Shown here: piece by piece, positions 1 to 53,295 of the stretch
Layout: every line of letters begins with the position of its first letter
How positions within the stretch are numbered: position 1 is the stretch's first letter
From: Eledone cirrhosa
Taxonomy: Eukaryota
Reading direction: 5' to 3'
NCBI GenBank assembly: GCA_964016885.1
Contig: OZ024754.1
Span: 2,790,001-2,854,000 of the forward strand
DNA: 64,000 nucleotides
The notes under the pieces: generated by a model
Database searches by the model: none
What the model saw: only the letters and a program-made list of their open reading frames with translations
Told to the model about the DNA's origin: nothing
Position numbers and translations under genes: made by a program

Positions 1-460
1 AAGGTGTGGGTGTGGTAGCAGTGTAAAGGTGTGGGGTGGGGTAGCAGTGTAAAGGTGTGGGTGGGGTAGCAGTGTAAAGGTGTGGGGTGTGGTAGCAGTG
101 TAAAGGTGTGGGGTGGGGTAGCAGTGTAAAGGTGTGGGGCGGGGTAGCAGTGTAAAGGTGTGGGGTGGGGTAGCAGTGTAAATGTGTGAGGTGGGGTAGC
201 AGTGTAAAGGTGTGGGGTGTGGTAGCAGTGTAAAGGTGTGGGGTGGGGTAGCAGTGTAAAGGTGTGGGGTGTGGTAGCAGTGTAAAGGTGTGGGGTGGGG
301 TAGCAGTGTAAAGATGTGGGGTGGGGTAGCAGTGTAAAGGTGTGGGGTGGAGTAGCAGTGCAAAGGTGAGGGGTGGGGTAGCAGTGTAAAGGTCTGGGGT
401 GGAGTAGCAGTGTAAAGGTGGGCAGTGTGGTAGCAGTGTAAAGATGTGGGGTGGGGTATC
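1..460. repeat. G-rich 26-bp minisatellite (AAAGGTGTGGGGTGGGGTAGCAGTGT)n, about 17-18 copies, runs off the window start
   Basis: Direct tandem repetition with point variants and no unique spacers. Confidence 0.95.
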
Positions 461-572
461 AGTCTATAGGCACGGAGCGGGGGAATGTAACGGCCTGTCT
501 AATAATACAATGATCTATTATTTAAATGTTCACGGCAACAGTTTTGTCACTTCTTAAATTACAGGACTCCTG

Positions 573-2111: not shown

Positions 2112-2176
2112 TATTCTATTATATATATTTCAAAGGTACCATATAAAACTTTGTTACGCTTTCATCAGATAAAATA
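2112..2176 (-). ncRNA. Type I hammerhead ribozyme (family D), within element ~2066-2195
   Basis: Minus strand TATTTTAT-CTGATGA-(imperfect stem II)-GAAA-TATATA-TA-ATAGAATA; 8-bp stem I with one G-U. Homologs at 12541-12710 (+) and 33816-33898 (truncated). Confidence 0.7.
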
Positions 2177-8296: not shown

Positions 8297-8349
<53 letters not shown>

Positions 8350-8433
8350 TACGTTATTCCGGGTTGAATCGGAGGTAACCACAGTAAGTAAGGTACTCAA
8401 TACATAGCAGAGTATAAAAGTTTTAATATAGAT

Positions 8434-8486
8434 GAGATTCTACAGGACTAGAACTGATTCATTCTTTAGAAATCATCAGGAATCTC
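8434..8486 (-). ncRNA. Type I HHR family A copy with A15.1U change (element 8353-8486, fused to a family G tail 8493-8570)
   Basis: Minus strand GAGATTC-CTGATGA-tttc-taaa-gaat-GAAT-cag-ttctagtc-ctg-TA-GAATCTC; 7-bp stem I. Confidence 0.7.
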
Positions 8487-8579
8487 TGATCATATTACCC
8501 ACTCTACTACCCCCAGTATCGAGTACTCTGGTGAGTTATGGTCCACCTGGTATTTCACCACACCTTTTCTGATACAGAA

Positions 8580-10854: not shown

Positions 10855-10915
10855 TTTCATTTACCAGTGGTTTCTTAAAAGCAAACAAATTTTGCTTTCA
10901 ATCATCAGAATGAAA
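10855..10915 (-). ncRNA. Type I hammerhead ribozyme (family B), mirror copy
   Basis: Reverse complement of 10995-11055, inside palindrome 10823-11087. Confidence 0.85.
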
Positions 10916-10994
10916 AAATCCTGGTGTATTTATTGACATTGGATTTTAAAAACCGGGTTTTTAAAATCCAATGTCAATAAATACACCAGGATTT

Positions 10995-11055
10995 TTTCAT
11001 TCTGATGATTGAAAGCAAAATTTGTTTGCTTTTAAGAAACCACTGGTAAATGAAA
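10995..11055 (+). ncRNA. Type I hammerhead ribozyme (family B)
   Basis: TTTCATT-CTGATGA-TTGAAAGCAAA-atttg-TTTGCTTTTAA-GAAA-CC-ACT-GG-TA^-AATGAAA; 7-bp stem I, 11-bp stem II, GUA site after 11048. Confidence 0.88.
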
Positions 11056-12554: not shown

Positions 12555-12629
12555 TATTTTATCTGATGAAAGCGCACCATAATTTACCTTGGTCGCCCTT
12601 GAAATATATATAATATATATAATAAAATA
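12555..12629 (+). ncRNA. Type I hammerhead ribozyme (family D) with expanded stem III
   Basis: TATTTTAT-CTGATGA-aagcgcacca..tggtcgccctt-GAAA-TATATA-TAA-TATATA-TA^-ATAAAATA. Confidence 0.7.
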
Positions 12630-32117: not shown

Positions 32118-32274
32118 ATGAAGCAATTTAACCATGTACATGACATCCCAAATCTTTGACCACTCCCCGTGACAGACAAGAAAAACAATGTTTTGACTGC
32201 ATTCCCATATATGGACTGTACCCCTTGATAAGTTCAGCTACATTTCCGCCGTTCTAATACTGCTGGTTGAGTTT

Positions 32275-32330
32275 GGATCTAGCTGTCTAAACGGCCGGAG
32301 CTCAGCCGTCGGGGTCTTGACTCTTTTCCT
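32275..32330 (+). mobile_element. Family G half-HHR fragment
   Basis: ggatctagctgtctaaacggccggagctcagccgtcggggtc. Confidence 0.75.
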
Positions 32331-32364
32331 ATATATATTTATATAACAAATTTAATATAGAAAT

Positions 32365-32416
32365 GGCTTCTACAGGACCAGAACTGTTTCATTGGAAGGA
32401 ACTCATCAGGAAAGCC
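32365..32416 (-). ncRNA. Type I HHR family A copy
   Basis: GGCTTTC-CTGATGA-gttccttccaat-GAAA-cag-ttctggtc-ctg-TA-GAAGCC; weak stem II. Confidence 0.7.
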
Positions 32417-38060: not shown

Positions 38061-39062
38061 GAGGCTTTTTTTTTCTCAAAATGTCCTTGTAAGGAGGACG
38101 TCTTATACGAAGGGGCGTCCAATAGGCCAGCAAATACAGTATATATAAATTTACACTGAATTGTATCATACAACACAGTAGACTATAGAACATACTGTGG
38201 AGCACCAAAACTTTAGTATAAACCACTAGTCGTCTACATTTACCTTGGTGTACATCATGTAATGTACAACCTATATTTTTATATCATTTCCTTTCCTTCT
38301 GATTGGTCCGTTTACACGCTCCAATTCACTATAAACGGCCCCACAGAATGTTCCATCTAATAAGGCGAGGTATTTGCCAGGGTGTATGTTTCTGTGTGTG
38401 GTGTGTGTTTCTGTATGTGTGTGTGTATTTGTGGTGTGTGTGTGTGTGGTATGTGTGTATGCCTATGTGTGGTGTGTGTCTCTGTGGGTGTCTATGTGTG
38501 TCTTGTGTGGTGTGTGTGTCTGTGTGTGTGTGTGTGTGCCAGTGTGTGGTGTGTGTGTGTGTATGTCTATGTGTATGTGTGTGTGTGTGTGTGTGACGAC
38601 TGTGCCCACAAGAAACGTGAACGGAGCAAAAGAGTTATAAACACTCTAAAGATATGTTAATTGGTACACGTACTGCCCAACACGTACATACATGCATATA
38701 TGTCTGTATATGCACACACACACACACACACCACACACACCCACACACACACACACACATACACACACACACACACATATTCAAAGATATATTTCTCAGA
38801 TGTCATTTTTATGGTCGTCACCAAATCTCGATTATAACTTATGCTGGATGATAAAGTAATTTTTCATAATAGTTTCCTTTTGACAGGTAAAAGTCGTTTT
38901 CTGAAAGAAATCAGATTATCACAGCGGATGTCCCCTCTCCTCGTGTTAACATTTCACAGGTGTTACTTTTCTCATACAAATAACCAGCTAACTAGTCAGG
39001 CGTTTTCACTGACAACACTTCACTGACGCTTCTACGCACATTTCATTGCATGTATATAAATA

Positions 39063-39273
39063 TATAGGAAAAAGTATGACCCCGACGGCAGAGCTCAAGC
39101 CGTTTCGACGGCTATTTCTGAACTAAATTGAATTTAGTCCAGAAATAGCCGTCAAAACGGCTTGTGCTCTGCCGTCGGGGTCATACTTTTTCCTATTTCC
39201 CACTCTACTACCCCAAGTATTGAGTACTCTGGTGCGTTATGGTCCATCTGGTTCCTTACCACAATTCCTTTGC
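39063..39273. mobile_element. Family G foldback element with tail
   Basis: Inverted repeat ~39064-39196, then tail to (TA)n. Confidence 0.88.
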
Positions 39274-39329
39274 TATATATATATATATATACATATATAA
39301 GATCAAAAGATGGTTAAAAGAGTTCCAAG

Positions 39330-39400
39330 TATTTTATTATGTGCATTTCAAAAACAAATATCATCATGGGATGATATCTGCGTTCTCATCAGATAAAATA
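39330..39400 (-). ncRNA. Type I hammerhead ribozyme (family D-related stem I, long stem II)
   Basis: TATTTTAT-CTGATGA-gaacgcagatatcatc-ccat-gatgatatttgttttt-GAAA-TGCACA-TA^-ATAAAATA; 8-bp stem I, 15 of 16 positions paired in stem II. Confidence 0.85.
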
Positions 39401-39603
39401 GGGAGACATGATATGAAGCTTAAAAAACACCTGTGAATAGTGAAGTTTTAGATCAACATATCATTACATTGCTTTATTGTGCTACAATAAAACTCACCTC
39501 CTATATATATATATATATAAGTTATTCCGGGTTGAATCGGAGGTAACCACAATAAGTAAGGTACTCAATACATAGCAAAGTATAAAAGTTTTAATATAGA
39601 AGA

Positions 39604-39652
39604 GCTTCTACAGGACTAGAACTGTTTCATTCGGGAGAAATCATCAGGAAGC
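39604..39652 (-). ncRNA. Type I hammerhead ribozyme (family A, intact) in foldback element 39521-39712
   Basis: GCTTC-CTGATGA-tttc-tccc-gaat-GAAA-CAG-ttctagtc-CTG-TA^-GAAGC; inverted partial copy 39655-39698(+). Confidence 0.85.
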
Positions 39653-40126
39653 AATGATGATTTCTCACGAATGAAACAGTTCTAGTCCTGTAGAAGCTCT
39701 TCTATATTAAAATATATATATCTTTCTCTCTGACTTACCCTGACTCTCTGCCTCTCTCTCACTCTCACTCACACTCTCTTTCTGTCTATCTGACTGATTC
39801 TCTCTAATTCTGACTCTCACTCACTCTGACTCTCTCTTTCTTTCTCTCTGACTCTCTCTCTCTCTTTCTCACTCTCTCTCACTCACTCTGAGTCTCTCTT
39901 TCTTTCTCTCTGACTCTCTCTCTCTCTCTCTTTCTCACTCAATCTCTCGATCTCTCTCCATTTGCCCTCTCTATCACTTTCTTTGTTTCTCTTTCTACTT
40001 TTCTCTCTCCATCTCTATTTCTCTCTATGTCTATCTGATTCATACCCTTCCTCTCTCTCTCTCTTTCTCCCTCTCTCGCCCCCCCCCCTACTCCCCCCTC
40101 TCTCTCTGGTATTTCATTCCTCTACT

Positions 40127-53240: not shown

Positions 53241-53295
53241 ACTGCTATATATATTTCGGTGACAGCCATCTCTGGCTGTGACCTCTTCAGGCAGT
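53241..53295 (-). ncRNA. Type I hammerhead ribozyme (family C)
   Basis: ACTGC-CTGAAGA-GGTCACAGCCA-gaga-TGGCTGTCACC-GAAA-TATATA-TA^-GCAGT; G10.1-C11.1 pair, GNRA loop II, palindromic stem III; lies in a ~260-bp island between (TA)n tracts. Confidence 0.88.

What the first reader, a model, noticed from the sequence alone, without database searches (positions are those of the whole stretch)
39063..39712. Three different ribozyme elements stacked within 650 bp
Seen: a family G foldback (39063-39273), (TA)n, an island with an intact HHR (39330-39400, long stem II), (TA)n, then a family A element with an intact HHR and an inverted partial copy (39521-39712). The two intact HHRs are both on the minus strand about 270 nt apart. 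Inference: serial insertion into one (TA)n. A minus-strand transcript cut at both sites would release a ~270-nt RNA with 5'-OH and 2',3'-cyclic phosphate ends, the substrate type for circularisation in retrozymes.
Basis: partly seen in the sequence, partly recalled or inferred. Interest (0 to 1): 0.75.

Follow-up and report, generated by a model that had tools for sequence, protein, structure and literature searches.

The report
Three Penelope transposon stubs in microsatellite
The short ends of three different Penelope-type jumping genes sit side by side in a TA repeat, likely after separate insertions, a common kind of pile-up in this genome, and the small circular RNA proposed here is predicted not to form because one of its two self-cutting motifs would be folded shut by its own mirror copy.

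Summary
The anatomy is confirmed; the retrozyme-like reading is not supported. G (39064-39273), the island H (39300-39501) and A (39520-39712) are 5'-truncated ends of three protein-coding Penelope-like elements of the Hydra clade. Parents with 712-808-residue open frames were found for all three; they carry the clade's motifs and are 36-49% identical to each other. Each stub is two arms joined head to head that end at the family's two fixed termini, the published footprint of priming on both target strands. Stacking is common: 14 of 87 sibling loci have another of the three families within 100 nt, 12 times the background. No triple stack was among those 87, and no copy of this composite was found. 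The two cut sites lie 271 nt apart, but A's hammerhead is inside a 57-bp fold-back, which costs about 66 kcal/mol to open in the folding model. H's has a 2-bp stem III and would need a dimer partner. G has only half a core. Expression is untested. The scan noted the same two-armed footprint before on other DNA of this genome. Ordinary; interest 0.14.

The parts
39053..39066 (.). Left remnant of the (TA)n target
   Evidence: Sequence; unique flank lies to its left
39064..39129 (-). Family G arm ending at the family's proximal terminus (about +20 from the hammerhead cut site); holds stem II end, GAAA, stem III and GUC but no 5' core half
39131..39273 (+). Family G arm ending at the distal terminus (about +103), with the 80-nt tail; GAAA reads AAAA at 39154-39157
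   Evidence: parent element with U3-A8 core in L123
39274..39299 (.). (TA)n between G and H
39300..39461 (-). Family H (island) arm ending at the proximal terminus (about +40 to +50); carries a full type I hammerhead
   Evidence: parent element in L153
39330..39400 (-). H hammerhead: 8-bp all A-U stem I, long stem II, 2-bp stem III with a broken palindrome; predicted cut between 39338 and 39337
39467..39501 (+). Short H arm: the last ~35-40 nt of the tail, ending at the distal terminus (about +135); shares no sequence with the other H arm
   Evidence: H hits -124..+53 and +97..+136
39502..39519 (.). (TA)9 between H and A
39520..39654 (-). Family A arm ending at the distal terminus (about +90), with hammerhead and 70-nt tail
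   Evidence: parent element in L101
39604..39652 (-). A hammerhead, complete in sequence; predicted cut between 39609 and 39608; predicted to be sequestered by the inverted arm
39655..39712 (+). Family A arm ending at the proximal terminus (about +20); inverted copy that forms a 57-bp hairpin (one mismatch, 8-nt loop) with the hammerhead
39713..39721 (.). Right remnant of the (TA)n target
39338..39608 (-). The 271-nt fragment that a double cut would release (hypothetical, predicted unlikely)

Best explanation
The stretch is three 5'-truncated ends of three different Hydra-clade Penelope-like retrotransposons, each flanked by TA repeats, likely inserted one after another into the same (TA)n tract and likely inert as a unit. 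Shown: each stub matches the hammerhead-bearing terminal repeat of a protein-coding parent in this genome, and each consists of two arms joined at their truncated 5' ends, one ending at a proximal and one at a distal fixed site 70-90 nt apart. Inferred, by analogy with the anole element studied in vitro (PMC11167929): the element's endonuclease nicks both strands of a TA tract, each 3' end primes reverse transcription at one of two internal start sites downstream of the uncut hammerhead, both cDNAs stop early, and their ends are joined. Inferred: every insertion leaves TA on both sides, so the tract stays a target and stubs pile up. Predicted: the hammerheads here are passengers; G's is half lost, A's is folded shut by its inverted arm, H's would need a second H RNA or protein help, so a 271-nt double-cut RNA would rarely if ever form.
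For: Parents: A end precedes and follows a 712-aa frame in L101. G end is repeated every 3531 nt around a 784-aa frame in L123/L124. H end flanks an 808-aa frame in L153. All three have DKT, YRDD, CxCX5C, CxxC..E and CxH; A and G have RWR, H has RWI. These match the Hydra definition in PMC8557442 section 11, whose supplement lists (TA)n targets and an octopus Hydra family. Proteins are 36-49% identical; the three stubs share nothing longer than an 11-nt perfect match. 3' ends are bimodal in each family. Of 93 head-to-head arm pairs in 87 loci plus the window, 80 are proximal+distal, 1 proximal+proximal, 0 distal+distal, 12 have an unclassed end. Another of the three families lies within 100 nt at 14 of 87 loci, within 300 nt at 18 of 87; 14 in 17,400 nt near against 11 in 167,484 nt far, 12-fold. 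The window holds 16 merged A/G/H insertions. Of 40 scored matches to the whole composite, only the window spans all three parts; five other G-H neighbours are 81-91% identical with varied match lengths. A fold penalty 66.1 kcal/mol with the arm, 2.2 for the bare core, 4.4 in its parent.
Against: A stack of all three families was seen at 0 of 87 other loci, so this exact triple is uncommon. The 87 loci were picked by similarity to the stubs, which favours the same arm layout, and only 40 candidates per search were scored. Pfam gave only a sub-threshold GIY-YIG match for the A protein (E 0.016) and none for G; PDB gave none; clade placement rests on motifs, not on a tree with reference proteins. 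No empty site was seen, so separate insertion and its order are inferred. Folding energies are a model without protein, magnesium or kinetics; the anole hammerhead cuts only with protein (PMC11167929). A transcript starting inside A, past the inverted arm, would escape the hairpin.
Confidence: 0.9

Rival explanations
1. A minus-strand transcript is cut at both hammerheads and releases a 271-nt RNA with 5'-OH and cyclic phosphate that RtcB closes into a circle.
For: Both cores are complete in sequence and on one strand, 271 nt apart. A's stem I shows a compensatory change between subfamilies, 17 and 8 of 51 motifs, so the family motif is under selection. RtcB circularises double-cut retrozyme monomers in vitro (PMC7229834 passages).
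Against: A's hammerhead fold costs 66.1 kcal/mol with the inverted arm present, and the arm is transcribed first. H's monomer fold costs 6.1; its stem III is 2 bp; this copy's palindrome is broken, self-dimer -3.7 against -10.5 kcal/mol in the parent; an A-H mixed stem III is -0.4. A single minimal PLE hammerhead showed no cutting in vitro (PMC4209133). No host exon was found: 0 Pfam matches in 82 of 127 frames sent.
Confidence: 0.04
2. The G-H-A stretch, or part of it, moved as one composite unit, captured and carried by one element's machinery.
For: G-H adjacency in the same orientation recurs at five loci. Capture of foreign sequence between pLTRs is reported for rotifer Penelope elements (PMC3846280 passages).
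Against: Those five matches are 81-91% identical over varied spans, lower than the 96-98% of the best single-family matches. None of 40 scored matches spans H-A or all three. Each stub has its own two termini and TA flanks.
Confidence: 0.03
3. The stubs are separate insertions, but the inverted arms arise by the cDNA folding back and copying itself (self-priming at a palindrome), not by priming on both target strands.
For: In A and G the arms overlap and meet at hairpin-forming sequence. Self-priming at junction palindromes was proposed in PMC3846280 (passage).
Against: The two H arms in the window share no sequence, so neither can be a copy of the other. In full-length insertions either arm can be the long one (L101, L123). 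Both target strands are cut and extended in vitro from two start sites (PMC11167929).
Confidence: 0.12
4. The stack is an assembly artefact of microsatellites and fold-backs.
For: No contig laid spans the stretch, and reads are cut at the TA tracts.
Against: Each stub has private differences from its family and clean family-typical ends; similar stacks are frequent; one contig runs from the unique left flank a few bases into G (too short to count as a bridge).
Confidence: 0.01

Closest known systems
Hydra-clade Penelope-like elements (Craig et al. 2021, PMC8557442; passages, section 11 and supplement part 2 read)
   Same: C-terminal endonuclease, DKT, CxCX5C linker, CxxC and CxH motifs, type I hammerhead near the 3' end, (TA)n targets, inverted 5'-truncated copies. 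A U-U opposition at the base of stem II, as in family A, is common in the listed Hydra hammerheads.
   Different: Units are longer (3.5 kb for G, about 4.7 kb for A in L101) than the under-3-kb elements described. RWK reads RWR or RWI. Tails are 70-90 nt, not 30-40. The listed octopus family Hydra-1_Obim has a different hammerhead by eye (not aligned).
Anole Poseidon element PAc (Frangieh et al. 2024, PMC11167929; parts 1-2 of 4 read)
   Same: Two internal start sites of reverse transcription downstream of the hammerhead define the tail; both target strands are extended; uncut RNA is the template.
   Different: Different clade; the two sites here are inferred from genomic ends only; here the start codon lies downstream of both termini.
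Minimal PLE hammerheads (Cervera and de la Pena 2014, PMC4209133; parts 1-2 of 4 read)
   Same: Scattered single motifs from truncated elements, close pairs on opposite strands, palindromic short stem III (H), U3-A8 core variant (G parent), low activity as monomers.
   Different: A and G have a proper 3-5 bp stem III. The same-strand pair here comes from two families.
Metazoan non-LTR retrozymes (PMC7229834, passages; preprint 10.64898/2026.07.22.740005, part 1 of 5)
   Same: Two same-strand type I hammerheads 170-400 nt apart.
   Different: Retrozymes are tandem repeats of one unit with one hammerhead family. Here the motifs are unrelated, the 271-nt segment occurs once, and one motif is sequestered.

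Membership tests
Hydra-clade PLE | Single ORF with RT and C-terminal GIY-YIG-type endonuclease, joined to the hammerhead end | tested here: met
   L101, L123, L153; Atlas neighbours at 0.96-0.99 include clusters with GIY-YIG (26-50% of members) and RVT_1 (18-77%); Pfam itself only E 0.016 for A, none for G
Hydra-clade PLE | DKT in place of DKG | tested here: met
   3 of 3 parents
Hydra-clade PLE | CxCX5C linker, no CX2-5CxxC finger | tested here: met
   3 of 3 parents
Hydra-clade PLE | CxxC and CxH around the conserved E and N of the endonuclease | tested here: met
   3 of 3 full-length parents
Hydra-clade PLE | N-terminal RWK motif | tested here: inconclusive
   RWR in A and G, RWI in H at the aligned place
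Hydra-clade PLE | Insertion into (TA)n | tested here: met
   Most of the 90 listed copies end in TA runs, read by eye, not counted
Hydra-clade PLE | Placement in the Hydra clade on an RT tree with reference proteins | not tested
   No reference proteins were fetched
PLE insertion footprint | Inverted 5'-truncated copy and a tail on one end only | tested here: met
   80 of 93 arm pairs are proximal+distal, 0 distal+distal
Type I hammerhead (A copy) | Core CUGANGA, GAAA, NUH and three stems in sequence | tested here: met
Type I hammerhead (A copy) | Active fold accessible in the local transcript | tested here: not met
   66.1 kcal/mol penalty in the folding model
Type I hammerhead (H copy) | Stable stem III as a monomer | tested here: not met
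   2 bp plus 4-nt loop; weak self-dimer
Type I hammerhead (G copy) | Both halves of the core | tested here: not met
   No 5' half on either strand of 39031-39300; present as UUGANAA in the parent
Type I hammerhead (all) | Self-cleavage | not testable with these tools
   Needs a cleavage assay
Non-LTR retrozyme | Tandem repeats of one unit, each with the same hammerhead | tested here: not met
   A and H stubs share no alignment longer than 15 nt; the composite occurs once among 40 scored matches
Non-LTR retrozyme | Expressed linear and circular monomer RNA | not testable with these tools
   No RNA run was available to lay (see Tried and rejected)

The most novel reading that the evidence does not exclude
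Pile-ups of unrelated Penelope ends in TA tracts repeatedly create same-strand pairs of different hammerheads a few hundred bases apart (here, and at 2 of 87 sibling loci), and some of these, this one included if protein help or an internal start frees the A motif, release chimeric circles that seed new retrozyme families.
Probability: 0.04. Interest if true: 0.6.

Novelty: new member of a known kind. Interest (0 to 1): 0.14.

Why it matters
As a locus it matters little: it is transposon debris of a described kind. It adds three Hydra-clade families with intact parents, and shows that the two-start-site footprint known from one lizard element holds in another clade with longer tails. If heterologous hammerhead pairs did yield circles, TA pile-ups would be a route by which retrozymes arise, but this locus is a poor test case because its upstream motif is predicted to be sequestered. 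The intact, near-identical tandem parents (L123/L124) are better material for testing a circular template.

Tried and rejected
Rfam scan of the window at gathering score: 0 matches. RNA evidence: no RNA holder listed among 10 runs; this says nothing on expression. DNA runs laid to look for an empty site: four contig runs, then two contig runs and two RAD-seq runs; the signal is swamped by other copies, no listed joint skips a whole stub, and 154 joints were not shown; no conclusion. Small shares in organisms B, C and D cover only the repeat parts, not the unique flank. Host gene: 82 of 127 low-repeat frames sent to Pfam, 0 matches; an intronic position is not excluded. Pfam on two endonuclease fragments: nothing relevant. 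PDB sequence search with the G protein: 0. Dating by arm mismatches: G 3 of 66; A 1 within the 57-bp helix, 3 of 60 with ragged ends; too few to order the insertions. An apparent arm-specific A-to-T change in G's stem III loop: 1 of 77 proximal or other arms against 4 of 65 unselected distal arms, some loci overlapping; rejected as query bias. Of 4 loci flagged for same-strand hammerhead pairs, L009 and L012 were dropped by eye because the second match lies in no recognisable element. Our-findings look-ups by place and by sequence were blank. No structure or complex prediction was run.

Full report
1. Observation. The cuts are 271 nt apart. A type I descriptor finds 7 motifs in the window against 0-1 in each of 10 shuffles. 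Rfam has no match at gathering score. The genome is 3.0 Gb and rich in microsatellites; that it is an octopus-type cephalopod is my inference, not a tool result.

2. Each part is a dispersed family. Searches of the own genome returned near-full matches at 94-98% (A), 89-98% (island, here called H) and 94-97% (G) on many contigs; 40 candidates were scored of 1434, 1089 and 479, which are not copy numbers. Most listed copies end in TA runs. H is a 200-nt element, 39300-39501, not just the hammerhead. The three stubs are unrelated in DNA apart from an 11-nt motif shared by the A and G tails.

3. Each family is the end of a protein-coding element. Non-inverted G copies run upstream through a 3' untranslated region into an endonuclease frame. 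A search with that frame gave 150 scored matches, several in 784-aa open frames. At G000:C1:437.2 Mb five G hammerheads lie 3531 nt apart, and the three later full units differ from the first by 1, 0 and 1 bases. The G core there is UUGAGAA, the U3-A8 variant reported for Schistosoma elements (PMC4209133, parts 1-2 of 4 read). For A, L101 holds hammerhead, tail, a 712-aa frame from ATG, a 3' region and a second hammerhead. For H, L153 holds the same layout with an 808-aa frame. The proteins are 49, 36 and 38% identical. All have DKT, YRDD, CxCX5C, CxxC..E and CxH; RWK reads RWR, RWR, RWI. This fits the Hydra clade as defined in PMC8557442 section 11; its supplement lists (TA)n targets and one octopus family. 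Against: Pfam gave only a sub-threshold GIY-YIG match for A and none for G, PDB none, and no tree with reference proteins was built. Atlas neighbours of the G protein are unnamed eukaryotic clusters, some with GIY-YIG or RVT_1 members.

4. How the stubs formed. Mapped on the parents, 3' ends fall in two peaks per family: about +20 and +90 (A), +20 and +100 (G), +50 and +135 (H) from the cut site; the proximal H figure includes TA-like bases. Of 93 head-to-head arm pairs in 87 loci and the window, 80 join a proximal and a distal end, 1 joins two proximal, none two distal, 12 have an unclassed end. The loci were chosen by likeness to the stubs, which favours this layout. All three window stubs follow the rule. 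In vitro, an anole element cuts and extends both strands of an AT-rich target and starts reverse transcription at two internal sites that define the tail, using uncut RNA (PMC11167929, parts 1-2 of 4 read). I infer the same here. Self-priming at a palindrome (PMC3846280, passages) could explain A and G but not the window's H, whose arms share no sequence.

5. Is the stack special? Another of the three families lies within 100 nt at 14 of 87 loci and within 300 nt at 18 of 87; all three together at 0 of 87. Near the focal insertion the density is 12 times that of distant flank (14 in 17,400 nt against 11 in 167,484 nt). The window has 16 merged A/G/H insertions, with further A-G pairs at 8349-8562 and 32205-32412. 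Same-strand pairs of different hammerheads within 500 nt were flagged at 4 of 87 loci; two are real element pairs (L076, 366 nt; L078, 209 nt) and two I dropped by eye. A search with the whole composite found no other locus spanning all three parts among 40 scored of 5279 candidates; five G-H neighbours are 81-91% identical over varied spans. Stacking is thus ordinary and best explained by TA targeting; the triple is the tail of that distribution. No empty allele was seen, so order is unknown.

6. The double cut. On the minus strand A's inverted arm comes first and pairs with everything from U4 of the core to past the cut site: 57 bp, one mismatch, 8-nt loop. Forcing the hammerhead costs 66.1 kcal/mol, against 2.2 for the bare core and 4.4 in the parent's context. 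Such an arm is present at 17 of 29 other A loci. The A motif itself is under selection in the family: stem I shows a compensatory change in 17 and 8 of 51 motifs. H's monomer fold costs 6.1 kcal/mol; stem III is 2 bp. The family's stem III is a palindrome in 28 of 42 motifs, but this copy has the broken form (12 of 42), with self-dimer energy -3.7 against -10.5; a mixed A-H stem is -0.4. A single minimal PLE hammerhead did not cut in vitro (PMC4209133). G lacks the 5' core half. RtcB would accept a double-cut RNA (PMC7229834, passages), but retrozymes are tandems of one unit, which this is not. Caveats: these are equilibrium models without protein; an internal start inside A would avoid the hairpin but would give no 5'-OH end unless it lay upstream of stem I; transcription is untested.

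7. Literature and earlier notes. Paper searches returned no paper on these three families or on heterologous hammerhead stacks; an octopus repeat annotation mentions Penelope-like families but not ribozymes (PMC13282606, passages). The retrozyme preprint was read in part 1 of 5. Earlier notes of this scan describe the same two-armed footprint in non-coding hammerhead repeats of this genome; I had noted it before looking, and they are unchecked leads, not support.

8. Verdict. Real anatomy, known kind: three stubs of Hydra-clade Penelope-like elements in one TA tract (confidence 0.9). The circular-RNA reading has about 0.04. Interest 0.14.

Noticed in passing
L123/L124 (G000:C1:437196500-437216300): A two-armed insertion of the protein-coding G element with four full 3531-nt units differing by 0-1 base, ending at the distal terminus on the left and the proximal one on the right. 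Copying seems to have passed several uncut hammerheads, as a circular or long tandem RNA template would allow.
   Followed up: partly
window 39217-39227 (+) and 39571-39561 (-): An 11-nt motif is identical in the tails of A and G, between the two termini, although the families are otherwise unalignable and their proteins are 49% identical; a candidate protein-binding or promoter element.
   Followed up: no
window 32205-32318 and L123:3679: Family G and relatives use the U3-A8 core variant with a long, branched stem II; the copy at 32222 has GAAA changed.
   Followed up: partly
window 10862-11048: Another fold-back with two complete, opposite-strand hammerheads of a fourth family.
   Followed up: no
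window 2120-2168, 12563-12621, 53246-53290: Further hammerheads with (UA)n-like palindromic stem III, from at least two more families, next to TA runs.
   Followed up: no
L076:286-652 and L078:1933-2142: Same-strand pairs of different hammerheads 366 and 209 nt apart; at L078 the A motif again has an inverted arm. L076 may be a better test of a chimeric circle.
   Followed up: partly
window 8349-8562: An A arm (minus) is joined directly, with no TA between, to a G tail arm (plus): a possible mixed two-armed insertion from two families' RNAs, or a deletion.
   Followed up: no
L153:3071-5494: The H protein has an asparagine-rich insertion of about 55 residues before the CxCX5C linker, like the N-rich inserts named for rotifer Penelope elements in PMC3846280.
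   Followed up: no
L102:6430-8866: Fragments of another Penelope-like element with a CxxxxCxxC linker (Neptune-like by the motif in PMC8557442), near A and G stubs.
   Followed up: no
window 1-470: Tandem array of a 26-nt G-rich unit, 18 copies, 90% matches.
   Followed up: no
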